Positions 2,486-48,838 of a DNA stretch of 64,000 bases are shown piece by piece; position 1 is the stretch's first letter; each line of letters starts with the position of its first letter. This DNA is from Trypanosoma brucei. Lineage: Eukaryota. The translations under genes and the position numbers were made by a program. Under the pieces are notes generated by a model that saw nothing but the letters and a program-made list of their open reading frames with translations, did not search any database and was not told where the DNA came from. Location: NCBI GenBank assembly GCA_000002445.1, contig CH464491.1, positions 416,001-480,000 of the forward strand, given 5' to 3'.

Positions 2486-3189
2486 CATTCCGGAACATGC
2501 TGAAGGAATTGTGGTGCTGTTTTGTTGCCGTTACAGATGTTTGTTGAGCGGTGGCGGTGGGGGGAAAGGTGCTATACGAAATGATGCAGCAGCGACCCGG
2601 ACATACCATTGTAATTTTGTCTCCTCTCCTCTTTCCTCTGACATGTGCCTCCTACTTGTGAATGTTCTTCCTCACTGCTTCTGTTGTGCCTTTGCACGTC
2701 ACATCAAATTTCAATATACATGTCCGATCACTCTCATTATTGTAATTCTTGCTTTTCTCGATTATTGGGTGTTGCTCCTTCTCCTTCACAAGAAGGTATA
2801 ACAACTTTAGCACGACCTTGGAGAGCATTTCGCGAGTTCCATCTCCAATCTTGAGCGTGATTATTTTAGTGTTTTCCCCTGTTTAATTTAAAGTTCCACT
2901 CAAATTTACCTGCGTTACGTGTATATACATAAACGAGTGTCAGTGTTACCGACGAGGGCGAGCGGAAGAAGAAGGGAAAGGGCAAAGAGGAGTGAGATAG
3001 GTTTTTATTTATTTCTTTATCATTTTCGGCCAATTTAAATATAATACGGTATACGGATTTACACCTTTCTACAGCTCGGCGGTCGGCAAGGACAGCGTTT
3101 CGTTCACTGAAGCTACATCAGTGAAGTAAGTTGTTTGCCATAACTTGTTTACCTACTATTGTGCGGCAGAATCATTTTATTCGAACACT

Positions 3190-6100
3190 ATGATGCGCCG
3201 TGCCTTTACGCGGGGTGCATGCGCAGCTCAGTCGTTCAGCATGGTACGCTTTTATACGGATGCCAAAACTGTTCGGCAGCCGCACCGCTACGACCAGGCA
3301 ATCACCGCTGAGAACGAAGTATACATTGAACAGCTGCTCAAACAATACGAACAGAACCCGTGCGAAGTGGACGGCAGTTGGATACCAATTCTTGAGAAAC
3401 TGCGTAGCGGCTCTCCGGATGCGCCTCTCGTGCAGGACTTCACCCGACCGGTGAAAGATGCCCCAAAAAGTGACAGCGAGCGTAGGCAAAGCATGGGCAT
3501 TACTTGGATGGTTACGGCATATGAAAGGTATGGTCATCACTACGCCAAAGTGAATCCTCTCAGGAGTGAGCAAGATGTGGAAAGTGACCGAAGGGACTTG
3601 TTAAATCTTCACTACTCCAACTTCGGTTTCACAGATCAAGACCTTACCAAGGTGTTTCCTGTAGATATTGGTGGTGGCTTAAAGGAGGCTTTTGGTGAGA
3701 ATGTGAAGGAAGCAACTCTGCAGCAAATAGTGGAGAAGCTACAGATGATGTACTGTGGTTCCATTGGATTTGAGTTTCTACTAACTGAGGGTGATGACGT
3801 CCGTCACTGGTTTCACAAGGAAATCTTGAAAACGTTTGAACCCCTTAGCAAGGAAGAACGTATTCACATTTTAGACGACGTGGTGAAAAGTTGTGGCTTT
3901 GAAACCTTCATTCAGCTCAAGTATGGGACGCAGTTGCGTTTCGGTCTTGACGGCGCAGAGGCTCTTGTTCCTGCTGTAATTGCATTGATGCAAGAAGCCA
4001 GCGACCTCGGCGTCACGTCCTTTGTCCAGGGCATGCCCCACCGCGGCCGTTTGAACCTTTTAGCCAATGTGAAGGTAAAGCCGCTAACCGACATACTAGC
4101 TGAATTCGAAGGGAAGACACACCGAAATGCGATCGCTCGTCTCGGTGATAACAAATATCACCTGGGAGCAGACAGACAAATTGAATTGCGCAACGGCAAA
4201 GTTATTAACTTTGATTTACTGTGCAATCCCTCCCATTTGGAGGCCATGAATCCCCTGGTTCTTGGCAAAGCGCGCGCACGCATGGTGGTCGAGAAGGACT
4301 CTGAGTGCGTCAGGACCCTCCCCATCATTGCACACGGTGACGCCGCCATATCTGGTTTGGGAATGGGCCACGAGACCATGGGTCTTTGGGATCTTGATAA
4401 CTACCGTGTCGGTGGTACCGTCCACATCATTACGAATAACCAAGTGGGCTTCACAACCGACTCGGTTGATGCTCGAAGGGCAAAGTATTGCAGTGACATT
4501 TCAAAAATACACGCCACACCCGTGTTGCACGTCAATAGCAACGATGTTGAGGCGTGTGTTCGCGCGGCGCGCATCGCGGCACGTTTCAGGCAGACGTTCC
4601 ACCGTGACATTATCATTGATCTTATCGGTTACCGACGAAATGGTCACAATGAAGCAGATTTCCCCGATTTTACCCAGCCGCAAATGTACCAAATCGTTCG
4701 ATCGCTTCGACCGCTGGTTGACCTTTACTCCGATACGCTGGTGGAGGAGGGTGTTCTAACAAAGGAAGATGTTAAGGCAAAGAAGAAGGAATACGAATCA
4801 CGACTGCGTGAAGCCTACGAAACTGCGCAGAGCTGTCCAGAGTACACAAAGGTGATCCCTAATTTAAGGGAAGATGCGGGGAATGCGAGCGAAGGCTACG
4901 ATCTTGCGGCTGAGAAGGAGGCAAACCTCCCAAAGGCAGTTGAAACGGGTGTCGACATTGAAGTACTACGCCGAGTTGGTTTGCACGTCACAACAATACC
5001 AAGCGAGGTAAAGAAGGTTCACCCCGTTGTGGAGCGTACATACGCGGCACGGAAGAAGGCCATTGAATCCGGTGAAGGTGCCGAATGGTGTTTGGCTGAG
5101 ATGCTGGCGTTTGGAGCCACGGCGTTGGAAGGAACACATGTGCGGTTGGCAGGGGAGGATGTTGAGCGGGGAACTTTCACTCAGCGCCATGCCGCGGTAA
5201 CAGACTTGGAGACAAACAAAAAGTACATACCGTTGTGTAGTCTGAGCGAAGACCAGGCGCTCGTCACGATATGCAACAGCAGTCTTTCCGAGTTCGGTGT
5301 GTCAGGCTTCGAATTGGGCTACAATGCCGTGAATCCACACACCCTGGGCATGTGGGAAGCGCAATTCGGCGACTTCGCGAATGGCGCCCAGGTTATTTTT
5401 GACCAATTCTTATGTTGTGGCGAAGAAAAATGGAATGCCAAATACAGCCTCGTCTTGTCACTCCCGCATGGTTACTCTGGTGCGGGTCCCGAACACAGTT
5501 CGGCCCGCATTGAGCGGTACCTGCAACTGTGCAGCGATACTGACGTGGTACCACACAACTTTCGTCGTGGCTGCCCACTCCAACTGCTGGAGGTCCGCAT
5601 CCAACGTTTCAACTGGCAGGTCTGTTATCCCAGCACACCTGCAAACTACTTCCATGTTCTCCGCCGTCAAGTGCGGCGGGGAGACCCCAAACCACTTGTT
5701 GTTTTCTTCTCAAAGGCGCGACTTCGTGCCCCTAATGTTTCATCTCTCAGTGAGATGTCTACGGGTACGTCATTTAAGCCAGTCATCGACACCGCTGTGA
5801 ACGACGAGGTTATTGCTCGCAAGGTTCTCTTCTGTACTGGTCAGATTGAGAGCATCGTGGATGATCGCCGAAAGAAGCTTCAAGCGGAAAAGCCAGGCGT
5901 TCACGACGATGTTGTACTGGTCAAGTTGGAACAGCTCTCACCATTTCCGTGGGAACAAGTGGCCGATGTATTGGAAAAGTATCACAGTCGGAACCCGAAC
6001 GTCCAGTTTGCGTGGTTGCAGGAGGAACCAAAGAACATGGGTTCATGGGCGTATGTGCGGCCGCGCCTTCAAAGACTGCTCAGACACTTGGGAATGGCGG

Positions 6101-12986: not shown

Positions 12987-14300
12987 ATGCTGGTGTCCCT
13001 CCATTTCTTTTGCTGTCGTGCGCTGCTACTTACACTGGCCTCCTGGGCAGCAGCATCAGGAGACGACGACGAGCCGTCTACAAGATTACACAAGTCTCTA
13101 GGGAGCGATGCACTTCAGGTCGTATGTCATATAAAGCGGATTGCGGATCTGGCGCGAAAGGATACACCAACGTACATCCTAAACAGGATTAGGGAACGAG
13201 AAGCCTCAGCCTTGCATGCTGTGGGAAGGGTGAAGCACTATATAGATCAAGTCAATGCCATCATTGCAATGCGCAAGGGCACACCAGACGGTGAAAAGAC
13301 AGAGCCCCTCATGACCAAAATTTATCAATTGTGTGGGGAGGCCGAGGCGGCTGCGAACTCCGCATCGAGTACTGTAGGAAAAGCGAGAGCGAAGGCTGAA
13401 ACAGCCGCAGGGGATGTGATGAAGCACGCCGCTGAAGTGTCCGGGAGTCCTCAAGATAGAACAACGGACGGTACCGGCTTGCGGCAACTGCTCGATTGGC
13501 ATTGCAAGGGCAACGTTCGCATTCCTACTGAATTTGAGTGTGTCTCTTACGGGCCTTCCAGCTCTTCATCAGATGGTAGCAGTGGGTCAACAGTGGATTG
13601 TACCCAGCGGCGCCCCGACGTGAACTACAAAACTTTAGATTCCGCAAAAATGAAAGCAGCCATGGAGAAATGGGTTAGTGTGAAACCACCCGCCTCGGAG
13701 ACAGTTTCAACAGGATGCAGAAACTACAATACAAATGAATATTTGTGCGCGGAACTTGAGAAGTGGGTGCCGTCTTATAGACGGCTAACGGAAGGAATGC
13801 TTACCCTGGAGCAGGCATTGCGTGAAGTTAGTTTTGTGGCAGCGGCAGTAGAGCGACAGTGGACAATTGCGTACCATCTTTATAATGAGGTGGAAAAGAA
13901 TCATGATTTGGAATCCCTTTCACAAGTAGTTAATAAAAAAAAGCACGAGATTGAAGCAACAAGAAACAGCACAGAGGATATGGAATTTTTGCACCGCAAC
14001 GGCTCCTTCGACGACGGGCTTACTGACCTAAGTGGCTGCGAGGGGGAGGAAAACGTTGGCGGTAACGGTGACAGCACCGAAGGGGGTCCGCAGAGTAAAG
14101 AATCAGCGGAAGCCTTGAAAAAGTCGCAAAGAAGTAAGAAAATTATTGTATTTGTAACAGTTGGTTTCGTCTCACTTGCAGTTGCCGTTTCCATAGTAGC
14201 GGCGTTCTTGTGCGTGTGCAGGAGGCGGCGGCTGCGAGAGAGTGCCGCACGCACGGGGGAAGTCTCAAAGGAATGCGCAGAACCTTCAGCAAAGAAGTAA
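12987..14300 (+). CDS. hypothetical type I membrane protein (signal peptide, ~380 aa ectodomain, single TM helix, short basic cytoplasmic tail)
   Basis: The start is an ATG. The N-terminal hydrophobic leader is MLVSLHFFCCRALLLTLASWAAASG. The C-terminal IIVFVTVGFVSLAVAVSIVAAFLCV segment is followed by CRRRRLRESAAR...KK. I recognise no catalytic motif. The architecture resembles trypanosome invariant surface proteins, but this is not a sequence-level identification. Confidence 0.5.
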   Translation: MLVSLHFFCCRALLLTLASWAAASGDDDEPSTRLHKSLGSDALQVVCHIKRIADLARKDTPTYILNRIREREASALHAVGRVKHYIDQVNAIIAMRKGTPDGEKTEPLMTKIYQLCGEAEAAANSASSTVGKARAKAETAAGDVMKHAAEVSGSPQDRTTDGTGLRQLLDWHCKGNVRIPTEFECVSYGPSSSSSDGSSGSTVDCTQRRPDVNYKTLDSAKMKAAMEKWVSVKPPASETVSTGCRNYNTNEYLCAELEKWVPSYRRLTEGMLTLEQALREVSFVAAAVERQWTIAYHLYNEVEKNHDLESLSQVVNKKKHEIEATRNSTEDMEFLHRNGSFDDGLTDLSGCEGEENVGGNGDSTEGGPQSKESAEALKKSQRSKKIIVFVTVGFVSLAVAVSIVAAFLCVCRRRRLRESAARTGEVSKECAEPSAKK

Positions 14301-16295
14301 TTGTAAAAAAGAGCACAAGGGGAATAAAACATAGTGAAAGGGTAAAAAATTATATATTGCACGTTTACGCTTAGTGGATTCAGCTGGTGCTGTCATTCCC
14401 CCCTGAAAAGCCGTGACGGAGATGTGCGCGTTGAGGGGAAAGGCTGTAAATTCAACGCCTCTGCTAGGGGTTGCCTCTCGGGTGAGGTGGGGAGGTTAAT
14501 GCTCCCCTTGCAGCACCATGCACACAAAATAACTTTTGCTATGTTAGTCTATATTTTTAATTGTTGCGGCTACTTCTTTTACGGCTGTGGGCATACCAAC
14601 CCTTTTTCTTTTTATTTTAATCTCTTTTTTTCTTCCTTTTTGAATTTGTAAAAGTCACTCGGTTACCTCACCTGTTCATGGTGTGGTGTCTCCTGGTTGG
14701 AAAATATTCTCGTTGTATTGCTTTAATTGTCAATAAGAACGCAGAAGGCGTGTGACGCGTACTCCTTGAAAATGTGACCGCCTTCTCGCCTCCATACGTG
14801 CGTACATATGCATCTTCCAAACTTCACTTTACATCCCCCGCACACATTGTACAGACAATAGGAGCTCGTTTGCATCCAACTGGCTTCTAGCGCATACAGC
14901 CAAACAGCATGTTAGCTATGTGGAAAATCGCCTCCCGGTTTCGTTTCACGGGGTATGTTAACTACAACAGGAATATTCAGGTTCTCCTGCGTGTAGGGAC
15001 GTGCGACGCTGCAATTTATGTGTGATGTAGGGACTCTGAACCACAATTCTTGTTCCCGTCACATCCCTCCAGTTGTGCGGTAGCGACGTACGAGCGGCGG
15101 CAGCAAGTGGAGAGGGAAACAAATGGCCATCACCCTCAAAGTTGAATAATTTGCCACTGTCGGTGTATGTGGCGGGTGCAACAATGATTAATCCACTTGA
15201 CTGCAATTTCCATCCCTTCAGCAGGGAGATGGATTGTAAAAAGTGCATCCGTTAATTTTTATTCAGTACTGGTCGGTGCCGTGCTGGTATGGGGGCTCGG
15301 GCACCGGAGGGGCATATCCTTCAACCCTTTCTTCCCTGCTTCTTTACAAGAAGAGATTGTGAAACTGTTGGGATGCGTTTAAAAAGTTCTTATGTGGAGG
15401 GTGTGATGGTGTTGAAGACATGGAAAAGCTACTATATATAGTCGATAAAAAAAGGTCGATAATTTTTACTTGGCAGCGAACGAGATCACCGCTTGTTGCA
15501 TTCAGTTATGGGAACCACAAGTATTCCAACTACAAAGTTTGTGAAACGCTCACTAAAACGGCCGAAGGAACTCTGCCAATGTATGTGAACTCGCGGCAAG
15601 AGGCTGGAAAGCAAAAAATTCCACGGCCGCTCGCGCCACCCGGGTGGAACTTTGCGTTTCAACTGCGAACCGGAAAGAAACAATAGCATCCCGAATTCAA
15701 TAATAACCACAAATGCCCACTTCCTAGTACACCCCTGTCTGTCCACCCGACGAATATTGATGCAATTTACATATGTGGAACCTAGCAAGTTGCTAAACAT
15801 CGCCTCCTTTTGTTAATAAAAAATGAGACCCTTTAATTGCAGCAAAATCGAAAATTATAAACACATACATGTGCGCACGTTGCTTAATGTGAGATAAAGA
15901 GAAACCAACAGAAAGCTCAGAAATAATAGCAGGAGACGTTCATCGCATCAACACAATATCACATGTCAAAACACGATTTAAGCCGTTGCGACAAGTCACA
16001 ACGCCGCGTAGACACGGGAATCGCACGATACTCGGTTGAAATAGATGGAACAAACACAAAACTGTTGTTTGCCACAACACCACAGGTAGTGCGCAAACAA
16101 GAGAACGATGGCAGAGGATACATACCTCGTATGGAAATTCCTTCACATACAGTAACGGACGATCTTATAATAACTCATAACCAACAAAGTGTAGACCACG
16201 TGGGAAAGTTACAAAGTTAAAAAGACTTTACTTTTTTATGTATCAGCAAAACTAAAGACTACAGTCAGAGCCACCTTTGAGATGAAAGTTGCATA

Positions 16296-16388: not shown

Positions 16389-19300
16389 ATGCCGGCAGCT
16401 TTGTGCGGTTTGAGTTCTTCTGCACCACACACACGGGCGTCCTCTCACCGTATGAGGCACGTGACGCTACAACGAGGTGCAAAGGTTATTGGGTCGCTGT
16501 TGTTGTTAATAATGCTGACAGTCGGTTCACTCGCAAGGCCAATTGAAGCAACAGATGTTGTGACAGTCAAAGTGCTGAGCCTCATGTACGGCGCCGGCTC
16601 CCCCAACGACGTCGTTGACTCCCTCAACGCAGGTCTGGGTGCATCCCTTGCAGCACGTGAAGATGAAGTGAGCTCGATGTTCAAGGTTTCTCTGATCCAA
16701 CCTTCGTCGTACGATGAGCCAATCGAGCAGTTGTTTAACACCACAGTAGAACGGACGAACAACGAGCTTCTGGTCATCGTGGGGCCACTGGGTAATCAAA
16801 ATGTACTTTGGGTACAAGACAGGCTAGAGGTGCATGATTTGGTTGCCTTTGCACCTCTTTCTTACTCTGATAAAACCCGTGGGTGGAATCCCCACTTCTA
16901 TTATCCAAGTGTCGAGCCAGATGCCGAGTTACTTGCCCTCGTCCGCTATGCTATCGTATTCCTTCGGGTCCCGCGCGTAGGCTTCATGTACCTCAAGGAC
17001 ACGCACTTTGGTGAGACCTCGCTTCTATTCGCACGGGATGTGATGTCTATGATGGGATATAAGTTGTGTGGCACGTTTGCTATCGAAGGCGGTGATGATC
17101 GGAGCGAGGACGCTACATTCGAGGCGGAGTGGAAACAATTTGTGGATACACGCCCGCAGGCTGTTCTGTTATTTGGTTCCCCACACGACCTCACCGCGAA
17201 GTTCATCACGAAGATGGTGACGGATAATCGCACAGCAGGAGCGTATGTACTTACCGTCTCCAATATGCAAAATTTCCTACTCAAGAACTGGAAGAAGGCA
17301 CTGGAGGTGGCTGGTGCCAATCTCAAACCCGGACAAATCGTCATCACCGGTACAAGCCCACTCGCTGGTGATGCGCAATATGAAGTGATCCAACGCTTCC
17401 AAAGGGAAATGACTAAACACCTAGAGACAAACAAGGACTGGGGCGGTTTTGCGAAGCCAGGGCACTTTAGCACTAACCACAATGATGGGGAACTGATGGT
17501 TCTCGGGTGGCTCGCTGGGGAGTTGCTTGTGCGGGCACTAGTTGAAAGTGTCTCATTAACGAATCGTACCCTATTCAAGGCTTCACTGTATAATCAGCGC
17601 CGCTACCTGATCGACGACATGGTGATTGGTGACTTTGGCGGTGAATGCAGTGAGGACGCACAACGTCAAGGTGCCGTCCGCCGTTGCAACCAAGGGGGTA
17701 ATATAGTGTACATGAAGAAGGTTGTTGACCAATACCATTTGGAACCACTAAGGGAAGGATTCCTGACCTGGGGTACATCGCGGTGCTTCAGCGAGGGTGT
17801 CCGCGTAGGTGCCCCGCTTAGCGGTGTCGTCATATTGGCGTCCGATCACACTGTTGCTCATCGTGCCAATTCTCGGTACTTTAGTGGTGCAACGGCTCTC
17901 TCACGTAACGACCGGATCTGGGAGGATGACAGGCTCTTCCTTCATCCTCTCGAGTCCTCGCTTTCAGGGGCGGCAACAGACCTTCACGATAACCGCGATA
18001 AAATTGTCATTTCTGCTGTCTTCGGCGTTGTGACCAATGATGTGCTTAGCACAGAAGGTCTTATTTTCTTTGACCCGATGGTGGTTTTCCCTCAGTTGAG
18101 TATGTTCAGACGGCATGTTATACACTTCTTTCCTACGCTCGCACAGGAGCTCTACGTATTCGCCCGATACCTCTCACACTCGGAAAGCAGCTTCGCCGAT
18201 GCCATTATCCGAAGCGATGAGGCAGGTGAAATTGCCAAGGTATTGGCAATGTCATTGGTGACATTTGGCGTGTCACCTGGTTTTGGAGTGTTCTTGGATG
18301 TTGCTTCCCCTATTCGTGAAAGTCATCTCAAACGCGGTGGCGATACGTTCGTCCTTGGACTCACAGCTCCTGATGTAAAATTGATATCCAAGCACCTTGA
18401 AACCCACCCTGAGGCTCGAGTTTTCATCACCTTCACGGACCTGGTACTGCTGTACGAGGAGTTCATATCAGAGTTCAATGCAACTACAAACACTAAAGCA
18501 CAGCGCCTATTTTTCGCCACTAGTTTACCGCATTGGGCTGATAATAGTTCCAAATCAGAAACCATTACTGCTTACCACAGAGCTATTCCCGATCCGAAGC
18601 AGTGGTCGCCGATGTCACTGCGTGGTTTCGCTGTCGCCCGAGTGATGCAAACTCTCCTAGTACCCATGAAGAAAGTGAATGCCGCTTTACTCGCAGAGCA
18701 AGTGTTTTGGCAAACGTCGTTTGTTGTCGATGACATGAAGTATGGGCCCTTTAACGATGTCGACTGCGTCGCTAACGGCGTGCAACTGTCGAGTAATTGT
18801 GTTTGGAACTACGGTGCCACAGATATCGCTGTGTGGTCCTTCGCTCGTGTTCTGAACCCTTCTCTTCCTGTAGCGGAGGATCCCATTACGCCTTCGATGG
18901 AGTATAAGAAGCCTCGCGAGCAACTAACATCCTCTGAGATTGCTGGTATCGTAATGGGATCAGTTATCGCGTTGATGCTCTTTGCTACCCTTGGTGTTGC
19001 ACTACTATGCAGTAGGCGGAACAAGCGTGATAACGACCGAGCGCCGAGGGAACCAACTGATCCCGTGACACTTATCTTCACTGACATCGAGAACAGCACA
19101 GCCCAGTGGGCGGCGCATCCCGATCTCATGACGGAGGCGGTAGCCGCGCACCACCGCTTGATCCGTGCACTGGTGCTGAGGCATAACTGCTACGAAGTTA
19201 AGACCATTGGAGACTCCTTCATGATCGCGAGCAAGCACCCGTCCCAAGCGGTTCAACTGGCAGCAGATGTTCAACTCATGTTCTTGCACAACGACTGGGG

Positions 19301-37822: not shown

Positions 37823-38995
37823 CTATTTTCTCAGTGGTCGAATAAGCCATCTAGGGTCTGAAATGTCCGAGAGAGGGCACACACCACTAAGTTTCATATA
37901 CCGGCGTGCGCCCCACACAGTGTGGACTTCTACAGAGCTATTCTCCAATAGACGTCTGTAGGCATTTTTCTGTTGGAAGGAAGAATCTCGAAGGGCTCTA
38001 AACCAACTTGTTTGGTTGAGATATTTGGGCATCAGGTTCCTCCACGCACTAATTGAGGTTGGGAAGTGCAAAACCACGCCACTTTCGACCGAAACACTGT
38101 GGGGATAATGAAAAAAACGCGTCTCGTAATCGAGGGATATAATTCCCCTTCGCAGCAGTAATTTTGGCTTCACATGCTTCGGCCTACTGACGCTCCATGT
38201 CAACACTATAGTCCACATAGTTTGATCACATAGCCAAATAAGGCTCTGGCGTCTCAAATTAAAGAAAACTTTCAAAGCCTCTTTTAGCGCCCACACTCTG
38301 GCTATCACGCCTCCGCCATTAAGATACGACCTTCCCGATTCATTTACCCTTAAAATATTTTCAACTCCCACACCCCTTGTTGCATCCATTGCGTCATCAA
38401 ACAACTTCTTACAGTTTTGAAACTCCGACCTCCCCTCCGGCTTCACCATGATATTCAGCTGAGGAGTAGCGCAACCCTTCTCAGCGGTAAACAACATTGG
38501 AGGTGTCATTTCTCCTCTTAAAATAGCCGTCTCGTTGAACGCTTCAGGGATTTTTGGTGTAGTGTCGAGGAAATGCTTCACTGCCTCCTCCCTAACACCT
38601 GCATCGGTGAAATAGGTATCTCCCCCATCGAACAACATAATCACATCACTTTCGCGCATCTTCTCACGCACCATGTAACTATAAATCCAGTCCCACCTCT
38701 TCACATGCCCATACCAGCCTCCCATGCCCAGTGTCGCAACCGATGCATTAGTGAGTATAGAACTTACAATCATCCTGCACCACCCCGGAGAGTACCTCGT
38801 GTGCACCACAGCATAATACACCCTCGGCGTATAATTTCTACCACTGTCTTTCTTTCTTAACAACGTCCCTGTTTCCTTGTTCCTCACGCTCATTTCTCCC
38901 AAAAACCAGAGCACAGTTAGCAGCATCACCCCCACCATCGCGGCATATAGTCTTCCCCTTGTGCCCCCATAAATTGCCCTAGCCCCTTTCAACAT
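37823..38995 (-). CDS. type II membrane protein, glycosyltransferase-like (GT-A fold, DGGD DxD-type motif; PLOD/LH3 N-terminal GT-domain-like), paralog A
   Basis: An N-terminal signal anchor (LYAAMVGVMLLTVLWFLG) is followed by VATLGMGGWYGHVKRW...DVIMLFDGGDTYFTD, which resembles the GT domain of lysyl hydroxylase/PLOD (TLGLGEEW...MIIMFVDSYDVIL). The functional call is tentative. The track start at 39010 is a TTG. The first ATG gives MLKGARAIYGG..., matching the N-terminus of paralog B. Confidence 0.45.
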   Translation of the reverse strand: MLKGARAIYGGTRGRLYAAMVGVMLLTVLWFLGEMSVRNKETGTLLRKKDSGRNYTPRVYYAVVHTRYSPGWCRMIVSSILTNASVATLGMGGWYGHVKRWDWIYSYMVREKMRESDVIMLFDGGDTYFTDAGVREEAVKHFLDTTPKIPEAFNETAILRGEMTPPMLFTAEKGCATPQLNIMVKPEGRSEFQNCKKLFDDAMDATRGVGVENILRVNESGRSYLNGGGVIARVWALKEALKVFFNLRRQSLIWLCDQTMWTIVLTWSVSRPKHVKPKLLLRRGIISLDYETRFFHYPHSVSVESGVVLHFPTSISAWRNLMPKYLNQTSWFRALRDSSFQQKNAYRRLLENSSVEVHTVWGARRYMKLSGVCPLSDISDPRWLIRPLRK

Positions 38996-39128
38996 ATAAA
39001 AACTTCGCAAAAAAAAAATGGATTTACTTGGAGAAGGGTGATGCTTTTCCCCTCAACTCGGACACAGTGCGGATGCGTTTTTTTTTTTTTTAACTCTGGC
39101 GAACGGTTCGTAAAAATTCCGTGCGATG

Positions 39129-40292
39129 TTACTTTTTCAACTGCCCACTGAGCCAACTGGGGTCGGAGATGTTAGATATGGGGCATACGGTACTTAACTT
39201 AGCGTCTTTGCGGGAACCCCAGAAAGTGTACATCTCCACAGTGGAATTTTTCAGCAAACGAATGGAGGCCTCCCGCTTGGGGGAAGAATTGCTCAGTGCT
39301 CTATACCAATTTATCTCACTCAGATACTGTGGCAATGTACGCTTCCACACGTGAACTGGTCCCGCAAAATGCAGTATCATTCCACTCATAACCATCGTCT
39401 TGGATGGATAAAGGAAGTAACGCGTCTCATAGTCAAGAGATATTAGCCCCCTTCTCACCAACAGCGCTGGCTTTATATTCTCCGGCCTGGTGATACTCCA
39501 TATTAGCAAGAGTGCCCACATTGACTGGTCGCAACCCCAAACAAACTTTTTTTTTCTGAGGTTAAAGAATGCCTTCAGAGCCTCTTCTAGTGCCCACACC
39601 CTGGCAATTATTCCTCCCCCGTTGAGATACGATCTTCCCGATTCATTCGCCCTTAAAATAGAACGCAACCCTGTGCGATTGGAAACTACGAACGCCTCGT
39701 TGTACAGTTTACTGCACTGATGAGCGCGCTCGCTCTTAGGTGTCTTTACCATGAAATGACTTTGAGGGGTGAAACAGAAATTTTCGGCGGCCATCAACAT
39801 TGGAGGTGTCATTTCCCCTCTTAAAATAGCCGTCTCGTTAAACGCTTCAGGGATTTTTGGTGTAGTGTCGAGGAAATGCTTCACTGCCTCCTCCCTTACA
39901 TCCTCCCCTGTGAAGACCGTATCGCCCCCATCAAATATCACAATCACGTCACCCTCACTCATCTTCTTCTGCCGTAGGTACCGGTACAACCACAACCACC
40001 TGCTCACATGCCCATACCAGCCTCCCATGCCCACTGTGGCAACGCTCACATTAGTGAGTATCGAACTTACAATCATCCTGCACCACCCCGGCGCGTACCT
40101 CGTTTCTGCAACAAGAAAAAACACCCTTGGTATGTGATTACCGTAACTTCCATCCTTCTTCCCCTCCACGCTAGTTTCCCCACTCCCTACATTTCTTAAC
40201 CCCAACCACCAAAAAAATAACATCAGCACCAACCCCATAACATACAACCTGCCCCTTGAATCCCCATAGAATTCCCTAACACCTTTCAGCAT
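39129..40292 (-). CDS. type II membrane protein, glycosyltransferase-like, paralog B (tandem duplicate of 37823-38995)
   Basis: About 70% aa identity to paralog A, with the same VATVGMGGWYGHV and FDGGDT motifs. It starts MLKGVREFYGD at an ATG. The intergenic spacer to paralog A is only ~120 bp and contains a T13 tract. Confidence 0.45.
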   Translation of the reverse strand: MLKGVREFYGDSRGRLYVMGLVLMLFFWWLGLRNVGSGETSVEGKKDGSYGNHIPRVFFLVAETRYAPGWCRMIVSSILTNVSVATVGMGGWYGHVSRWLWLYRYLRQKKMSEGDVIVIFDGGDTVFTGEDVREEAVKHFLDTTPKIPEAFNETAILRGEMTPPMLMAAENFCFTPQSHFMVKTPKSERAHQCSKLYNEAFVVSNRTGLRSILRANESGRSYLNGGGIIARVWALEEALKAFFNLRKKKFVWGCDQSMWALLLIWSITRPENIKPALLVRRGLISLDYETRYFLYPSKTMVMSGMILHFAGPVHVWKRTLPQYLSEINWYRALSNSSPKREASIRLLKNSTVEMYTFWGSRKDAKLSTVCPISNISDPSWLSGQLKK

Positions 40293-40431
40293 ACAAACAG
40301 ATGTCTCTAAGAAATAAAAGGGTACGCACCCAGTGAGTGGACAACTACACGTTAAATCAAGGGAAACGAATAGTTAATGTTAAACATTAGTTTCCCAACA
40401 GTTAAGGCATGTAAATCCGGCACACCACAAC

Positions 40432-43400
40432 ACCAAAAACACATAAATATGTGCAACACCGATTATCTCGGGATGCTGATGCTCCCACTCGCCTACATAT
40501 GAAGGCAGTGGGTCTCAATGCATACCTCGTTAAATGTGAACCCAACGATAACGATATTCTGTGGGACAGATTCAAATAGATGAGACAACAGAGTAGTGTG
40601 CAGGCATTCAATACGTACAACAGTCAGACCTGTTGAGTTTGATTTAGTATTCAATAAGCGCGCTCATAAAGTAAGGCATATTGACCTTCACGTACACATA
40701 ATCGTTGTTTCCATCACACTGCCGCGTCTGTTGTGCATTCCCCCCATTTTCTTATCCACCTTCCCACCCAGATACCACAAACAAACCGCATGATCTCTCT
40801 TACACTTTCGAGCCAATACCGTCACCGAAAGTATACTGACAGGCAGCCAGACAGGGTAAGATTTGGTTCTAATGACATAATGCTGCGTAGAGCAAAGGTA
40901 GTGGGGGGGGGGAAAAAAAAGGATGTGGAGAGGGATGGAGGAAGGAAGGGAACGAGCTGCATAGCAGGCCATTGCTCAGCCGAAAGGTGATTTTTGATGT
41001 TCCGTTATCAATGCATCGCTCAAACTGTTTGGACCTCGAACAACAATTATGCATCACAGCATCAGTGGCCAAAAAGAAAACTAGTAGCACACATATACAC
41101 ACACACGAACATAAACATAAACATAAACATAAACAGGGATGAATGACCTATGAGGAAGAGGGTGGATAAAAACAAAATAATAAGGATGGATGATACTCGA
41201 TTCAGTGTGAGCTGAGTTAAAAATTATGTCTTCAAAATGGCTCTACTGCCGTCAGGCTGACAGGAAACTATTGACTGTCATCATTAGAGGGGAAGATAAT
41301 GCATTTGAGTGCCAAAACTACAAATGGCTCTCGCGCAACAGGACAGGGGCCACATCCCCACGGCATTAAATGGTTGCCACTGGCCCAAGGGATGCTGCGC
41401 TGTATTGTTTCAACAGCACATAAGCAAAAACACATAAATATGTGCAACACCGATTATCTCGGGATGCTGATGCTCCCACTCGCCTACATATGAAGGCAGT
41501 GGGTCTCAATGCATACCTCGTTAAATGTGAACCCAACGATAACGATATTCTGTGGGACAGATTCAAGTAGATGAGACAACAGAGTAGTGTGCAGGCATTC
41601 GATACGTACAACAGTCAGACCTGTTGAGTTTGATTTAGTATTCAATAAGCGCGCTCATAAAGTAAGGCATATTGACCTTCACGTACACATAATCGTTGTT
41701 TCCATCACACTGCCGCGTCTGTTGTGCATTCCCCCCATTTTCTTATCCACCTTCCCACCCAGATACCACAAACAAACCGCACGATCTCTCTTACACTTTC
41801 GAGCCAATACCGTCACCGAAAGTATACTGACAGACAGCCAGACAGGGTAAGATTTGGTTCTAATGACATAATGCTGCGTAGAGCAAAGGTAGTGGGGGGG
41901 GGAAAAAAAAGGATGTGGAGAGGGATGGAGGAAGGAAGGGAACGAGCTGCATAGCAGGCCATTGCTCAGCCGAAAGGTGATTTTTGATGTTCCGTTATCA
42001 ATGCATCGCTCAAACTGTTTGGACCTCGAACAACAATTATGCATCACAGCATCAGTGGCCAAAAAGAAAACTAGTAGCACACATATACACACACACGAAC
42101 ATAAACATAAACATAAACAGGGATGAATGACCTATGAGGAAGAGGGTGGATAAAAACAAAATAATAAGGATGGATGATACTCGATTCAGTGTGAGCTGAG
42201 TTAAAAATTATGTCTTCAAAATGGCTCTACTGCCGTCAGGCTGACAGGAAACTATTGACTGTCATCATTAGAGGGGAAGATAATGCATTTGAGTGCCAAA
42301 ACTACAAATGGCTCTCGCGCAACAGGACAGGGGCCACATCCCCACGGCATTAAATGGTTGCCACTGGCCCAAGGGATGCTGCGCTGTATTGTTTCAACAG
42401 CACATAAGCAAAAACACATAAATATGTGCAACACCGATTATCTCGGGATGCTGATGCTCCCACTCGCCTACATATGAAGGCAGTGGGTCTCAATGCATAC
42501 CTCGTTAAATGTGAACCCAACGATAACGATATTCTGTGGGACAGATTCAAATAGATGAGACAACAGAGTAGTGTGCAGGCATTCGATACGTACAACAGTC
42601 AGACCTGTTGAGTTTGATTTAGTATTCAATAAGCGCGCTCATAAAGTAAGGCATATTGACCTTCACGTACACATAATCGTTGTTTCCATCACACTGCCGC
42701 GTCTGTTGTGCATTCCCCCCATTTTCTTATCCACCTTCCCACCCAGATACCACAAACAAACCGCATGATCTCTCTTACACTTTCGAGCCAATACCGTCAC
42801 CGAAAGTATACTGACAGGCAGCCAGACAGGGTAAGATTTGGTTCTAATGACATAATGCTGCGTAGAGCAAAGGTAGTGGGGGGGGGGGAAAAAAAAGGAT
42901 GTGGAGAGGGATGGAGGAAGGAAGGGAACGAGCTGCATAGCAGGCCATTGCTCAGCCGAAAGGTGATTTTTGATGTTCCGTTATCAATGCATCGCTCAAA
43001 CTGTTTGGACCTCGAACAACAATTATGCATCACAGCATCAGTGGCCAAAAAGAAAACTAGTAGCACACATATACACACACACGAACATAAACATAAACAT
43101 AAACACGGGATGAATGACCTATGAGGAAGAGGGTGGATAAAAACAAAATAATAAGGATGGATGATACTCGATTCAGTGTGAGCTGAGTTAAAAATTATGT
43201 CTTCAAAATGGCTCTACTGCCGTCAGGCTGACAGGAAACTATTGACTGTCATCATTAGAGGGGAAGATAATGCATTTGAGTGCCAAAACTACAAATGGCT
43301 CTCGCGCAACAGGACAGGGGCCACATCCCCACGGCATTAAATGGTTGCCACTGGCCCAAGGGATGCTGCGCTGTATTGTTTCAACAGCACATAAGCAAAA

Positions 43401-45603
43401 ACACATAAATATGTGCAACACCGATTATCTCGGGATGCTGATGCTCCCACTCGCCTACATATGAAGGCAGTGGGTCTCAATGCATACCTCGTTAAATGTG
43501 AACCCAACGATAACGATATTCTGTGGGACAGATTCAAATAGATGAGACAACAGAGTAGTGTGCAGGCATTCAATACGTACAACAGTCAGACCTGTTGAGT
43601 TTGATTTAGTATTCAATAAGCGCGCTCATAAAGTAAGGCATATTGACCTTCACGTACACATAATCGTTGTTTCCATCACACTGCCGCGTCTGTTGTGCAT
43701 TCCCCCCATTTTCTTATCCACCTTCCCACCCAGATACCACAAACAAACCGCATGATCTCTCTTACACTTTCGAGCCAATACCGTCACCGAAAGTATACTG
43801 ACAGGCAGCTAGACAGGGTAAGATTTGGTTCTAATGACATAATGCTGCGTAGAGCAAAGGTAGTGGGGGGGGAAAAAAAAGGATGTGGAGAGGGATGGAG
43901 GGAGGAAGGGAACGAGCTGCATAGCAGGCCATTGCTCAGCCGAAAGGTGATTTTTGATGTTCCGTTATCAATGCATCGCTCAAACTGTTTGGACCTCGAA
44001 CAACAATTATGCATCACAGCATCAGTGGCCAAAAAGAAAACTAGTAGCACACATATACACACACACGAACATAAACATAAACATAAACATAAACAGGGAT
44101 GAATGACCTATGAGGAAGAGGGTGGATAAAAACAAAATAATAAGGATGGATGATACTCGATTCAGTGTGAGCTGAGTTAAAAATTATGTCTTCAAAATGG
44201 CTCTACTGCCGTCAGGCTGACAGGAAACTATTGACTGTCATCATTAGAGGGGAAGATAATGCATTTGAGTGCCAAAACTACAAATGGCTCTCGCGCAACA
44301 GGACAGGGGCCACATCCCCACGGCATTAAATGGTTGCCACTGGCCCAAGGGATGCTGCGCTGTATTGTTTCAACAGCACATAAGCAAAAACACATAAATA
44401 TGTGCAACACCGATTATCTCGGGATGCTGATGCTCCCACTCGCCTACATATGAAGGCAGTGGGTCTCAATGCATACCTCGTTAAATGTGAACCCAACGAT
44501 AACGATATTCTGTGGGACAGATTCAAATAGATGAGACAACAGAGTAGTGTGCAGGCATTCAATACGTACAACAGTCAGACCTGTTGAGTTTGATTTAGTA
44601 TTCAATAAGCGCGCTCATAAAGTAAGGCATATTGACCTTCACGTACACATAATCGTTGTTTCCATCACACTGCCGCGTCTGTTGTGCATTCCCCCCATTT
44701 TCTTATCCACCTTCCCACCCAGATACCACAAACAAACCGCACGATCTCTCTTACACTTTCGAGCCAATACCGTCACCGAAAGTATACTGACAGGCAGCTA
44801 GACAGGGTAAGATTTGGTTCTAATGACATAATGCTGCGTAGAGCAAAGGTAGTGGGGGGGGAAAAAAAAGGATGTGGAGAGGGATGGAGGAAGGAAGGGA
44901 ACGAGCTGCATAGCAGGCCATTGCTCAGCCGAAAGGTGATTTTTGATGTTCCGTTATCAATGCATCGCTCAAACTGTTTGGACCTCGAACAACAATTATG
45001 CATCACAGCATCAGTGGCCAAAAAGAAAACTAGTAGCACACATATACACACACACGAACATAAACATAAACATAAACATAAACAGGGATGAATGACCTAT
45101 GAGGAAGAGGGTGGATAAAAACAAAATAATAAGGATGGATGATACTCGATTCAGTGTGAGCTGAGTTAAAAATTATGTCTTCAAAATGGCTCTACTGCCG
45201 TCAGGCTGACAGGAAACTATTGACTGTCATCATTAGAGGGGAAGATAATGCATTTGAGTGCCAAAACTACAAATGGCTCTCGCGCAACAGGACAGGGGCC
45301 ACATCCCCACGGCATTAAATGGTTGCCACTGGCCCAAGGGATGCTGCGCTGTATTGTTTCAACAGCACATAAGCAAAAACACATAAATATGTGCAACACC
45401 GATTATCTCGGGATGCTGATGCTCCCATTCGCCTACATATGAAGGCAGTGGGTCTCAATGCATACCTCGTTAAATGTGAACCCAACGATAACGATATTCT
45501 GTGGGACAGATTCAAATAGATGAGACAACAGAGTAGTGTGCAGGCATTCAATACGTACAACAGTCAGACCTGTTGAGTTTGATTTAGTATTCAATAAGCG
45601 CGC
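40432..45603. repeat. tandem direct-repeat array: 5 full + 1 partial copies of a 984-991 bp unit, >99% identical
   Basis: The same 60-137 aa ORFs recur at 984-991 bp spacing (e.g. minus-strand ORF starts at 41450, 42434, 43421, 44410, 45399). The unit landmark cacataaatatgtgcaacacc falls at ~40440, 41431, 42415, 43402, 44391 and 45380. Copies differ only by a few SNPs, (CATAAA)3 vs (CATAAA)4, and a G8-11 A8 block. The array ends abruptly at ...caataagcgcgctc / ttttttttttggg. Confidence 0.95.
42180..42275 (-). ncRNA. candidate C/D-box snoRNA, one per repeat unit (coordinates given for the third copy); speculative
   Basis: On the minus strand the unit reads ...ccucuAAUGAUGAcagucaauaguuuccugucagcCUGAcggcaguagagccauuuugaagacauaauuuuuaacucagcucacaCUGAaucgag.... 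This gives a consensus C box (AUGAUGA), a CUGA about 22 nt downstream (D') and a second CUGA about 80 nt downstream (D), so the element is ~90 nt, a typical size for a trypanosome C/D snoRNA. The terminal stem is weak. No covariance search or expression data were available. Confidence 0.2.
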
Positions 45604-46826
45604 TCTTTTTTTTTGGGAGAGGGTTACTTCTATTTGCTATATTATTTTTCTTGAACTGCAATGCCTTGCGTGAAGAAAATTATGAGGTGAAAAAAAAAGG
45701 TGTCAAGTTTTTGCTGTTATGGAATTGGTTTTTTTAATGCTTACTTGCTAAACTTTTTTTTTTTGGAGCAGAAGTGTTTACACATTTTCTTTTTTTCAAC
45801 TCATCATCCTGTCTTCCATTTTGTTATGTAACTGATCTTTATACAAATAAGAATGGATATTTGCAATGGAGAACGTATCGGTAGGATGGATGTGAGTTCT
45901 GACCCTTTATTCTGTGATCAGTTGTGGGATTTGCAATATATCTCTCGTGCGTTTTTTTAGAAAAAATATACCAAAGGATGAACAACTTAATGGTAAACGT
46001 TGGATCTTTTCTGCCGAATTTTTTCTTTCTTTTCTTCCATAACTTTTTTTTCTTGGAAGGTGGTTCTTTTCTTAACTTCTACCAAAGCATCGCCGCGTTA
46101 TGCAGTGCAAAGAGGCGAGTTTTTTTTATGTCGATCGAACCACCCTTTAAAAACAAGCAAAACCACGGATACGTAAACGTGTTAATGAGGTTGAGTGATA
46201 GCTTTTGTGACCAATCACCTCACGTGTGGTAACGGTAAGTAAAACAAAACGATGTAAAATGCGGCAAGGCAACAACGCATATGCGCAGTCACTTATATAC
46301 GAACAAATAACGAAATGACATATATATAATGGCAATTCATAAAAAGTGAGAGTAACCATGCCTTTGCAGTTGTGGAATCGTTGTTTTCCCTATTTCATCG
46401 ATTCCCTTGGTGGTTTGCCTTCATATGAAGCTGTGTCGGGCGCTTTCGACATACCCATCAATGCAACAATTCAAACTTGCACTCAGTCACTTTTTCCTTT
46501 TCCCCGTATCGGCGTGAGCTCTACGCTATTTCTCCTCCACTCTGTAGATATTGAGACGCTTGAACGATAACGTATATGAAATGCCCAGCAGTTGCAACCG
46601 CAAGCTTACACATGGATCACTGGACCTTTCCCATGCATAAAGCTAAATGCCATCTCCGAGGCAAGGCAAGAGAGTCGTGAAATACATGATCAAACGAAAA
46701 AATACGAAATGAGGCGACAAACGGCGGACTTCGCTCCGCCCAATAACTCAAATAAATAACACGCACCATATCCTGATTGCTTTACATAACATCCATCTCG
46801 CCACCCCTCGTCAGAACAAACAATTC

Positions 46827-48062
46827 TTAAAGACTGTTGATCAAATCTTTCGTAATGTTCTTGTGATGTGCCTCGAGTGTGCCGCCGCCGATCTCAAGCA
46901 ACTTCGCATCCCGCCACAGCCGCTCCACCGGCATATCACGCGCATATCCCATACCACCCATAACTTGCATGGCGTTGTCAGCCGCCCGCTTCGCAACAGG
47001 CGCTGCAAACAATTTTACCGCATCGCTCCCCAGGCGGTTGCAATTTCCTGGCGCCACACTCCTGCTTACAGCATATGTAAGTGATTTGGCCGCCTCCGTT
47101 TCTGCAAACGTCTCGGCAATGTAGCGCTGAATCTGTCCATAATTCCAAATGTGTTTACCAAACGTCTTACGCTCATTGGCATAACACGTCATGAGTTCCA
47201 CGCAACGATCAGCAATACCCACCGCCATTGCGGCCAATGTGAGACGCTCAACCTCCAGGTTACGCATCATTGCCACAAGCCCTTTCCCTTCAGTGCCGAG
47301 CAGATTCTCCTCTCCAAGCACCACATTATCGAAGAAAAGTTGACACATGTGAGACCCACGCATGCCGCACTTGTCAATCTTCTTCCCCACAGAAAACCCC
47401 GATGCACCCTTCTCTACAACGAACGCGGTGATTTTGCCGTCAACCTTTGCATACACAAGAACAAGGTCAGCAACGGTACCATTTGTCACCCACGTCTTGC
47501 CACCGTTAAGAATATACTTTCCATTACTTTCTTTTGTCGCAGTGGTCAGCATACCAAGAACATCTGTACCCGCACCGGGTTCCGACATGCCCATTGCACC
47601 TATGTGCTCGCCTGTAAGCACTTTGGGGAGCCACCGCTCCCGTTGTGCCGCTGTGGAAGCATGATAGAAGTTGTTCACAAAAAGCATCGAGTGAGCCAAG
47701 TAGGCGAGACAAAAGCCTGGATCCACTTTGGAAAGCTCGTGGTGGATAACAACCGCTGCCGTGGCGTCCATTCCAGCACCACCGTCTCCCTCAGGAATGG
47801 TTACACCGAGTACACCAAGGTCACCCAACTCGCGTAGGAGATCAACATTAAAATGCATGTCAATATCGCTCTGTTTTGCCTGCGTTTCAACCCGCTCCGC
47901 TGCGAATCTTTGAACCGTTTCACGCAGCATCTTGTGTTCAGGTGTTGGGTTTAAAAGATAATCCAAGTTAACGGTCGTCGAAGGAGAGAAAAAACGGAGA
48001 CCACATGGTGCTACCAGCGCAGTGTAGTGTCGTCTAATAGACGCTAAACGATACGAGCGCAT
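46827..48062 (-). CDS. IVD: isovaleryl-CoA dehydrogenase, mitochondrial (acyl-CoA dehydrogenase family)
   Basis: Strong block-wise similarity to IVD: [67 protein letters not shown] and [15 protein letters not shown] align with human IVD GNLGVLGITAP..., [49 protein letters not shown] and LRDAKLYEIGAGTSE. The track start at 48101 is a TTG. The first ATG (~48062) gives [13 protein letters not shown]..., an Arg-rich mitochondrial-type presequence. Confidence 0.85.
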   Translation of the reverse strand: [411 protein letters not shown]

Positions 48063-48838
48063 GCTCAACAGGGGGAAATGAAACAAAACGCTCAAATTCA
48101 ATAAGGCTCCTGTTTTCCCCCTCTTTTAATTCCCCACAAGTACAAGTTTCTTTTTCGATAATACCAACGAGATGCCGCAACAATCCACTACCCTCCCGGT
48201 AGTGTCAGCAGTTTCCCCCTTAATTTTCCACTTCCCCCACGATTATCCTCTACCCACCAGTTGGCTGCGCAGCGTCTAAGCACAGCACAAACAGTCACCG
48301 GCGCGTGAAAAAAAAAAAACTTATTCTGTCAAAGGTTTGTCGTCCGATGGCCTCCCGTTTTCGCTTGTTTTTATCCCTACTACTTTTCCCTTCCCTTCAA
48401 TTTTTTTTCAGGCACTGCGTATTTTGGGATGCAACGATGTGTGCAGACACTATCGAGGGAAGAACGAAAGATAGGAAGAAGGCTACAAAACAACAAGTGT
48501 ATTACTAAAAGTGAAGCAGAAGCAAATCCACAGCAAAAAAGGGAGCTCATGTAAACCTCCCCCCCCCTTCTTTTACAGGAAGCCACAAAGTGAGGGGAGC
48601 GATGCGGTCAGCTCACGCTTGCACAAGATCAAACAACAACAACCACAACAACCGACAAATAAGGTAGCGACACTTCCCTTCCTCGAACCAATCCTTCGTC
48701 CCTCTTCTCCAGCTCAGTTTCCAACCACTTTGCCGTTACCGAACCCGACAATATACCTCAAAACCGACACAAACAATATCAGGGAGAACGTACCGCCGTA
48801 GTTTTAAAACATACAAACTGCTTTATGCCATCAGCCAT

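What the first reader, a model, noticed from the sequence alone, without database searches (positions are those of the whole stretch)
42180..42275. Candidate C/D-box snoRNA on the transcribed (minus) strand of each repeat unit
Read on the minus strand, each unit contains AAUGAUGA (a consensus C box) followed ~22 nt later by CUGA and ~80 nt later by another CUGA. That is the C ... D' ... D layout of a ~90 nt C/D snoRNA, the usual size in trypanosomes. A UUGAAGA between the two CUGA motifs could serve as a degenerate C' box. The orientation matches the surrounding polycistron, as expected for co-transcribed snoRNAs. The terminal stem is weak, so this is a lead rather than a call. The same element recurs at ~41196-41291, ~43167-43262, ~44156-44251 and ~45145-45240.
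Basis: seen in the sequence. Interest (0 to 1): 0.5.

Follow-up and report, generated by a model that had tools for sequence, protein, structure and literature searches.

The report
Known trypanosome methylation-guide snoRNA TB11Cs4C1
The flagged element is a real box C/D small nucleolar RNA gene that directs ribose methylation of two adenosines in the large ribosomal RNA, but it is an already catalogued Trypanosoma brucei snoRNA (TB11Cs4C1), so it is ordinary.

Summary
All five repeat units carry, on the minus strand, an identical AUGAUGA-22 nt-CUGA-17 nt-UGAAGA-23 nt-CUGA element; 0.02 are expected by chance. Rfam places the ~988-bp array in T. brucei snoRNA cluster TB11Cs4, with H/ACA genes H1, H2 and H3 in every unit. 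Each unit also holds three C/D genes. Their fifth-nucleotide targets match the three C/D snoRNAs published for this cluster, one to one. The candidate's D' and D guides pair best with ACUGA*CAGGGAAC and GUGA*GCUGGGUU, two adenosines exactly 12 nt apart in kinetoplastid-type LSU rDNA. Putting the first at LSUb_1388 makes all seven checked Nm positions (1264-1435) carry the reported base, so the targets are LSUb_1388 and LSUb_1400, which are assigned to TB11Cs4C1. The D site is the yeast Am2946 (snR71) / human Am4493 (U29) position. Syntenic copies in T. conorhini, T. melophagium, L. major and L. panamensis keep the boxes and both guides while the linkers diverge.

The parts
42180..42275 (-). 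Candidate box C/D snoRNA gene, identified as TB11Cs4C1, in the focal unit. The mature ends are approximate.
   Evidence: targets
42262..42268 (-). C box AUGAUGA (RUGAUGA)
   Evidence: UGAUGA is invariant in the 7-sequence alignment A1
42240..42261 (-). D' guide. Positions 2-13 upstream of D' (GUUUCCUGUCAG) pair with LSU ACUGA*CAGGGAAC and target the A at LSUb_1388.
   Evidence: GTTTCCTGTCAG is invariant in A1
42236..42239 (-). D' box CUGA (CCGA in Leishmania)
42213..42218 (-). C' box UGAAGA (UGAGGU in Leishmania)
42190..42212 (-). D guide. AACUCAGCUCAC pairs with LSU GUGA*GCUGGGUU and targets the A at LSUb_1400, the position of yeast Am2946 and human Am4493.
   Evidence: PMC10899779; PMC3511168
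42186..42189 (-). D box CUGA
41196..41291 (-). Identical copy of the same snoRNA gene
43167..43262 (-). Identical copy of the same snoRNA gene
44156..44251 (-). Identical copy of the same snoRNA gene
45145..45240 (-). Identical copy of the same snoRNA gene
41957..42060 (-). Second C/D gene of the unit (GGCCAcUGAUGC...CUGAgcaaUGGCC), identified as TB11Cs4C2. Its D guide targets the A in CCGAA*AGGUGGUG and its D' guide targets the U 11 nt upstream (LSUa_927 and 916).
   Evidence: (weak snoZ196/R39/R59 hit, 27 bits); PMC9283944 Table 2
42596..42696 (-). Third C/D gene of the unit (CAGU-GUGAUGG...CUGA-CUG), identified as TB11Cs4C3. Its D guide pairs with CCCUGUUGAGUUUGA, where the U and G correspond to LSUb_672 and 673.
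   Evidence: PMC9283944 Table 2
42310..42385 (-). H/ACA snoRNA TB11Cs4H3, directly upstream of the candidate in transcription order
   Evidence: 90.2 bits; gathering score 40
42441..42503 (-). H/ACA snoRNA TB11Cs4H2
   Evidence: 73.1 bits
41785..41855 (-). H/ACA snoRNA TB11Cs4H1
   Evidence: 77.8 bits
40422..45661 (-). Tandem array of ~988-bp units (spacing 984-991 bp). Gene order in transcription direction is C1-C2-H1-C3-H2-H3.

Best explanation
The element is the T. brucei box C/D snoRNA gene TB11Cs4C1, present once in each unit of the chromosome-11 snoRNA cluster 4 array. The inferred route is the standard one for trypanosomatid snoRNAs: the array is co-transcribed with the surrounding minus-strand polycistron, the ~90-nt RNA is excised, and it assembles with the C/D core proteins (Snu13, Nop56, Nop58 and the methyltransferase NOP1/fibrillarin) on the C/D and C'/D' box pairs. 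What the sequence shows is that its two antisense elements pair with neighbouring stretches of LSU-beta rRNA just 3' of the A loop (H92-H93 region). Under the fifth-nucleotide rule, the D' guide targets A1388 for ribose methylation and the D guide targets A1400. A1400 is the ancient site methylated by snR71 in yeast and by U29 in human and plants. The A1388 pairing depends on a kinetoplastid-type rRNA base (CUGACAGGG rather than CUAAUAGGG).
For: The box layout is real and far above chance. The array is cluster TB11Cs4 by Rfam H/ACA matches of 67-90 bits. The flanking gene is isovaleryl-CoA dehydrogenase, 100% identical to the T. brucei equiperdum protein. The unit holds exactly three C/D genes, and PMC9283944 Table 2 lists three for this cluster: C1 at LSUb_1388 A and 1400 A, C2 at LSUa_916 U and 927 A, and C3 at LSUb_672 U and 673 G. 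In three complete kinetoplastid-type rDNA units (L050, L013, L037), the top-scoring target of the candidate's D' guide and the top-scoring target of its D guide are two A residues exactly 12 nt apart. Each duplex is 12 bp with one G-U, over positions 2-13. Setting the first A to 1388 makes 7 of 7 published Nm positions between 1264 and 1435 carry the reported base. Only 8 of 9144 offsets satisfy the five nearest positions by chance. The other two C/D genes hit the C2 and C3 sites. Orthologues sit downstream of the same gene in T. conorhini, T. melophagium, L. major and L. panamensis. They keep the C box, the 12-nt D' guide core, D', C', the 13-nt D guide and the D box, while the linkers differ in length and sequence. 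A degenerate L. panamensis copy has lost both boxes together. Yeast A2946 is the snR71 site, and U29, AtU29 and snR71 guide the orthologous site.
Against: I could not obtain the published TB11Cs4C1 sequence (Liang 2005 and Rajan 2020 are not held) or the T. brucei rRNA itself. The name therefore rests on cluster identity plus target matching, and the rRNA used was environmental kinetoplastid-type rDNA. I labelled that rDNA kinetoplastid from an 18S 5' signature that I recalled from memory. Helix length alone is only weakly significant when G-U pairs are counted freely: 56 of 500 and 30 of 500 shuffled guides reach 12 bp somewhere in the unit. The RNA has no significant fold (z = -0.21) and only a 3-bp terminal stem. 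In PMC9283944, LSUb_1400 did not fall on NOP1 silencing (fold change 1.00) and LSUb_1388 fell non-significantly (0.55, p = 0.12). No Rfam C/D family matches the element at E <= 10.
Confidence: 0.94

Rival explanations
1. It is a chance co-occurrence of short box-like motifs in the spacer of a repeat that exists only for the H/ACA genes, and it is not a functional RNA.
For: The motifs are short. The five copies are one repeat, not five events. There is no significant fold. Single-guide helix length is only marginally above shuffles.
Against: Boxes and both guides are conserved between Trypanosoma and Leishmania while the linkers diverge. The two best targets are adjacent and fall on two mapped Nm sites in exact register.
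Confidence: 0.01
2. It is a real C/D snoRNA but a different one from TB11Cs4C1. That could be an unannotated paralogue, or one whose main role is pre-rRNA folding or processing or guiding a non-rRNA target, with the rRNA matches incidental.
For: NOP1 silencing did not lower LSUb_1400 (PMC9283944 Table 2). The same paper speculates that some T. brucei C/D snoRNAs have non-rRNA targets.
Against: The unit contains exactly three C/D genes. The other two account for the C2 and C3 targets, which leaves this one with the C1 targets, and it matches them in register. Both guides are conserved over exactly the stretches that pair with rRNA.
Confidence: 0.04
3. It is a decaying pseudogene copy kept only by concerted evolution of the array.
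For: Degenerate copies do exist in related arrays, in L. panamensis and at the T. theileri 3' end.
Against: All five T. brucei copies have intact consensus C, D', C' and D boxes and intact guides identical to those of distant species.
Confidence: 0.01

Closest known systems
TB11Cs4C1 (T. brucei C/D snoRNA; Liang et al. 2005 nomenclature; target table in PMC9283944)
   Same: It lies in the same cluster (TB11Cs4, by Rfam H1-H3) and has the same two targets (LSUb_1388 A and LSUb_1400 A, 12 nt apart). It is first in the C1-C2-H1-C3-H2-H3 gene order. I conclude it is this gene.
   Different: Nothing different was detected.
snR71 (yeast) / SNORD29 = U29 (human) / AtU29 (plants), Rfam clan CL00051
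   Same: The D guide targets the orthologous adenosine (yeast Am2946, human Am4493) in GUGA*GCUGGG, 3' of the A loop.
   Different: There is no detectable sequence or covariance-model match to these families at E <= 10. The element also has a second active guide (D'), for a site whose pairing needs the kinetoplastid-type base. It is encoded in a tandem polycistronic cluster rather than in an intron or as an independent gene.
Leishmania major orthologue in the syntenic array (L095, 9 copies, first at ~16199-16284)
   Same: It has the same C box, the same D' guide core AUAGUUUCCUGUCAG, the same D guide AACUCAGCUCACA, the same D box, and the same neighbourhood with TB11Cs4H1/H2 homologues.
   Different: D' is CCGA and C' is UGAGGU. 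The D'-C' linker is 8 nt rather than 17 nt. The terminal stem is stronger (GCGCG/CGCG). No TB11Cs4H3 match reached threshold in the part of the array that was fetched.

Membership tests
Box C/D snoRNA (2'-O-methylation guide) | C box RUGAUGA near the 5' end and D box CUGA near the 3' end | tested here: met
   AUGAUGA at 42268-42262 and CUGA at 42189-42186. Both are present in all complete orthologues.
Box C/D snoRNA (2'-O-methylation guide) | Short terminal stem bringing the C and D boxes together | tested here: inconclusive
   T. brucei has only a 3-bp CUC/GAG stem, and the MFE fold does not predict it. Orthologues have different, stronger flanking complements (L. major GCGCG/CGCG, T. conorhini CGC/GCG).
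Box C/D snoRNA (2'-O-methylation guide) | Internal D' and C' boxes | tested here: met
   CUGA at 42239-42236 and UGAAGA at 42218-42213. Both are conserved in position across species (CCGA and UGAGGU in Leishmania).
Box C/D snoRNA (2'-O-methylation guide) | An antisense element of at least 10 bp directly upstream of D or D', with the fifth nucleotide opposite a known Nm site | tested here: met
   Both guides form 12-bp duplexes (one G-U each) over positions 2-13. Position 5 falls on A residues that map to LSUb_1388 and LSUb_1400 (PMC9283944 Table 2).
Box C/D snoRNA (2'-O-methylation guide) | Expressed as a stable ~70-120-nt RNA bound by fibrillarin/NOP1, Nop56/58 and Snu13 | not testable with these tools
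   No expression data are available here. PMC9283944 treats TB11Cs4C1 as an expressed guide.
TB11Cs4C1 specifically | Located in T. brucei chromosome-11 snoRNA cluster 4 | tested here: met
   TB11Cs4H1, H2 and H3 occur in every unit at 67-90 bits. The flanking gene is 100% identical to T. brucei.
TB11Cs4C1 specifically | Guides Nm at LSUb_1388 and LSUb_1400 | tested here: met
   In the register test, 7 of 7 positions carry the reported base. The other two C/D genes of the unit take the C2 and C3 targets.
TB11Cs4C1 specifically | Sequence identical to the deposited TB11Cs4C1 | not testable with these tools
   The source papers and supplements are not held.
SNORD29/snR71 (Rfam CL00051) | Guides the yeast A2946 / human A4493 equivalent | tested here: met
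   The D guide pairs with GUGA*GCUGGGUU. The site identity comes from PMC10899779 and PMC3511168.
SNORD29/snR71 (Rfam CL00051) | Match to the family covariance models | tested here: not met
   No C/D family hit overlaps 42180-42275 at E <= 10.

The most novel reading that the evidence does not exclude
Beyond its two catalogued rRNA targets, the snoRNA might have another role. Candidates are a chaperone role in folding the H90-H93 peptidyl-transferase region, because it clamps two adjacent strands at once, or a non-rRNA target for the unpaired 5' part of the D' spacer. Either could explain why Nm1400 did not fall on NOP1 silencing. My evidence does not address these possibilities.
Probability: 0.05. 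Interest if true: 0.35.

Novelty: already known. Interest (0 to 1): 0.08.

Why it matters
It matters little for discovery. The result confirms that a motif-only reading can recover a real snoRNA, and it supplies a full anatomy of one array unit: three C/D and three H/ACA genes, each with its target. The only mildly informative point is evolutionary. The D guide serves an ancient methylation site shared with yeast, human and plants. The D' pairing depends on a kinetoplastid-type rRNA base. A sister copy in the T. theileri group has shifted its D guide by two nucleotides onto the neighbouring snR69-type cytidine.

Tried and rejected
Rfam at gathering and at E <= 10 gave no C/D family for the element. 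Only the neighbouring C/D gene gave a weak snoZ196/R39/R59 hit.

The primary catalogues (PMC1370750, PMC7549662) are not held. The supplements of PMC9283944 and PMC3273796 contain no sequences for this cluster.

The first metagenome scan used the perfect Watson-Crick complement of both guides (GCTGACAGGAAAC..GTGAGCTGRGTT) and found nothing. The real target has a G-U wobble at position 10 and an unpaired position 1. A wobble-coded pattern then found 89 loci.

A viral-contig scan gave one generic eukaryotic LSU fragment (L001). There the D' duplex has a C-A mismatch at position 4, next to the target.

The helix-length shuffle test was only marginal by itself, so I relied on adjacency, register and conservation instead.

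The T. cruzi loci (L091, L092) have RHS genes downstream of the anchor gene and no array. The T. vivax contig ends too early, and the Leptomonas copy runs into an assembly gap.

MFE folding was uninformative.

Full report
**Observation.** On the minus strand the focal unit reads cucuA-AUGAUGA-cagucaauaguuuccugucagc-CUGA-cggcaguagagccauuu-UGAAGA-cauaauuuuuaacucagcucaca-CUGA-aucgag. The C box is at 42268-42262 and D' at 42239-42236, after a 22-nt spacer. C' is at 42218-42213, and D is at 42189-42186, after a 23-nt spacer. The composite pattern occurs five times in 64 kb, once per repeat unit and always on the minus strand, against 0.02 expected from shuffles. The five 99-nt copies are identical.

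**Context.** The region 40.4-45.7 kb is a tandem array with a period of 984-991 bp. Rfam at gathering threshold finds the H/ACA families TB11Cs4H1, TB11Cs4H2 and TB11Cs4H3 on the minus strand of every unit, at 67-90 bits. This is therefore T. brucei chromosome-11 snoRNA cluster 4. The gene upstream on the same strand (46827-48101) is isovaleryl-CoA dehydrogenase, 100% identical to the T. brucei equiperdum protein. An XRN-type gene lies further upstream, also on the minus strand.

**Anatomy of a unit.** Reading the unit shows two more C/D genes besides the candidate.
- One is at ~42060-41957: GGCCAcUGAUGC...CUGAgcaaUGGCC. It gives a weak Rfam snoZ196/R39/R59 hit.
- The other is at ~42696-42596: CAGU-GUGAUGG...CUGA-CUG.
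- The order in the direction of transcription is candidate, second C/D, H1, third C/D, H2, H3.

**What the literature lists.** PMC9283944 Table 2 gives RiboMeth-seq data for T. brucei rRNA with the assigned guides. It lists three C/D snoRNAs for this cluster:

| snoRNA | Targets |
|---|---|
| TB11Cs4C1 | LSUb_1388 (A), LSUb_1400 (A) |
| TB11Cs4C2 | LSUa_916 (U), LSUa_927 (A) |
| TB11Cs4C3 | LSUb_672 (U), LSUb_673 (G) |

The original catalogues (Liang 2005, Rajan 2020) are not held, so I could not compare sequences directly.

**Getting an rRNA to test against.**
- No trypanosome rRNA is in the collections.
- From the two guides and the 12-nt spacing of the C1 sites, I predicted that the targets lie side by side just 3' of the LSU A loop.
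- A scan for the perfect complement found nothing.
- A generic eukaryotic LSU fragment (L001) showed CUAAUAGGGAACGUGAGCUGGGUUUAGA. This fits the D guide, but it leaves a C-A mismatch at position 4 of the D' duplex.
- A wobble-coded scan that required G at that position returned 89 LSU rDNA loci.
- 35 of them carry CUGACAGGGAAC. In every such locus long enough to reach the SSU, that variant co-occurs with an 18S 5' end 1-2 mismatches from the kinetoplastid form that I recalled from memory. The CUGAUAGGGAAC loci carry the common eukaryotic form. The kinetoplastid label rests on that recalled signature.

**Target test.**
- In three complete kinetoplastid-type units (L050, L013, L037), the top-scoring site for the D' guide is ACUGA*CAGGGAAC.
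- The top-scoring site for the D guide is CGUGA*GCUGGGUU.
- Each duplex is 12 bp with one G-U, spanning positions 2-13. The fifth-position residues are two adenosines exactly 12 nt apart.
- Setting the first adenosine to LSUb_1388 makes all seven Table-2 positions between 1264 and 1435 carry the reported base (C, G, U, A, A, C, U). Only 8 of 9144 offsets satisfy the five nearest positions by chance.
- The third C/D gene's D guide hits CCCUG*UUGAGUUUGA, which gives the U,G pair of the C3 targets.
- The second C/D gene hits CCGAA*AGGUGGUG with its D guide, and the U 11 nt upstream with its D' guide (degenerate D' box UUGA). These are the C2 targets.
- The three genes therefore map one to one onto C1, C2 and C3, and the candidate is C1.
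- One caveat applies. Helix length alone, with G-U pairs counted freely, is reached by 6-11% of shuffled guides somewhere in the unit. The weight of the argument is in the adjacency, the register and the conservation.

**Conservation.**
- Homologues of the flanking dehydrogenase led to syntenic loci.
- Rfam finds TB11Cs4H arrays downstream of the gene in L. major and T. theileri.
- Orthologues of the candidate occur there and in T. melophagium, T. conorhini and L. panamensis.
- In alignment A1, UGAUGA, GUUUCCUGUCAG and the C, G and A of the D' box (C-GA) are invariant. The D guide AACUCAGCUCACA plus CUGA is identical in all five full orthologues.
- The post-C spacer, the D'-C' linker (8-17 nt) and the post-C' spacer all diverge.
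- The terminal-stem flanks differ between species but remain complementary.
- A degenerate L. panamensis copy has lost both the C box and the D box.
- This is the pattern expected of a functional double-guide C/D snoRNA that predates the split between Trypanosoma and Leishmania.

**Comparison with known families.**
- The D site is the yeast Am2946 position, guided by snR71, two nucleotides from the snR69 site C2948 (PMC10899779).
- It is orthologous to human Am4493 (U29) and to the plant AtU29 site (PMC3511168).
- The element works like a U29/snR71 guide. It does not match those Rfam models at E <= 10, so I do not file it as a sequence-level member of that family.
- The RNA has no significant fold (z = -0.21), as is usual for C/D snoRNAs.

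**Verdict.** The element is the already catalogued TB11Cs4C1, so it is not novel. What remains unshown here is direct identity to the deposited sequence, the T. brucei rRNA itself, and expression.

Noticed in passing
L096 13735-13828 (also 14870-14963, 15993-16086, 17124-17216); L093 ~13897-13992: T. melophagium arrays alternate two paralogues of this snoRNA. Paralogue B keeps the D' guide, but its D guide (AAACCCAGCUCU-CUGA) is shifted by 2 nt. Position 5 then falls on the C of GAGC*UGGG, the yeast Cm2948/snR69 site. No Nm is listed at that position (LSUb_1402) in the part of the T. brucei Table 2 that I read. The single T. theileri copy is B-like with a degenerate 3' end.
   Followed up: partly
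L098 minus strand (offset ~450 of the reverse complement) and L098 ~15655-15760 plus strand: The L. panamensis array contains degenerate copies of the snoRNA. In them the C box has become GGGGA, C' has become GGAGG, the D guide is altered and D has become CCUG. These are apparent pseudogenes sitting beside an intact copy.
   Followed up: no
window 45662-46826, compared with L093, L094, L095, L096, L098 and L099: In T. theileri, T. melophagium, T. conorhini, T. vivax, L. major and L. panamensis, a DUF1295 gene sits directly downstream of the isovaleryl-CoA dehydrogenase gene. Where an array was found, the DUF1295 gene lies between that gene and the array. In this T. brucei window no DUF1295 coding sequence is detectable anywhere (tblastn best E = 0.33). 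In the T. cruzi loci, RHS genes occupy the position downstream of the dehydrogenase gene.
   Followed up: partly
window 37823-39010 and 39129-40292 (minus strand): Two tandem paralogous ORFs (395 and 387 aa, ~79% DNA identity over 300 nt) lie immediately downstream of the array. They have no Pfam match.
   Followed up: no
window 45540-45700 and 40422-40530: The array edges are not at unit boundaries. The 5'-most unit starts inside TB11Cs4C3 (its C-box half is missing) and carries a more divergent H2 copy (67.3 bits against 73.1). H2 has six copies, while H1, H3 and the candidate have five each.
   Followed up: partly
window 41108-41135, 44068-44095, 45057-45084; poly-C/poly-T tract around 42880-42900 (minus strand): The unit-length differences (984-991 bp) come from spacer microsatellites: (UGUUUA)n downstream of the candidate, and a U8-C11-like tract upstream of H1. 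Units 2 and 3 differ from units 1, 4 and 5 in the (AACATA) repeat.
   Followed up: no
L001 1-130 compared with 131-3711: The IMG/VR contig begins with 130 nt of eukaryotic LSU rRNA (A loop to sarcin-ricin loop). It then switches abruptly to AT-rich, protein-coding-looking sequence. This could be an rDNA-inserted element or an assembly chimera.
   Followed up: no
window 42232-42250 (minus strand): The 3' end of the D' guide (CUGUCAG) can pair with the D' box plus downstream bases (CUGACGG), because the rRNA target itself contains CUGAC. The MFE fold draws this hairpin. Whether it competes with target binding is unknown.
   Followed up: no
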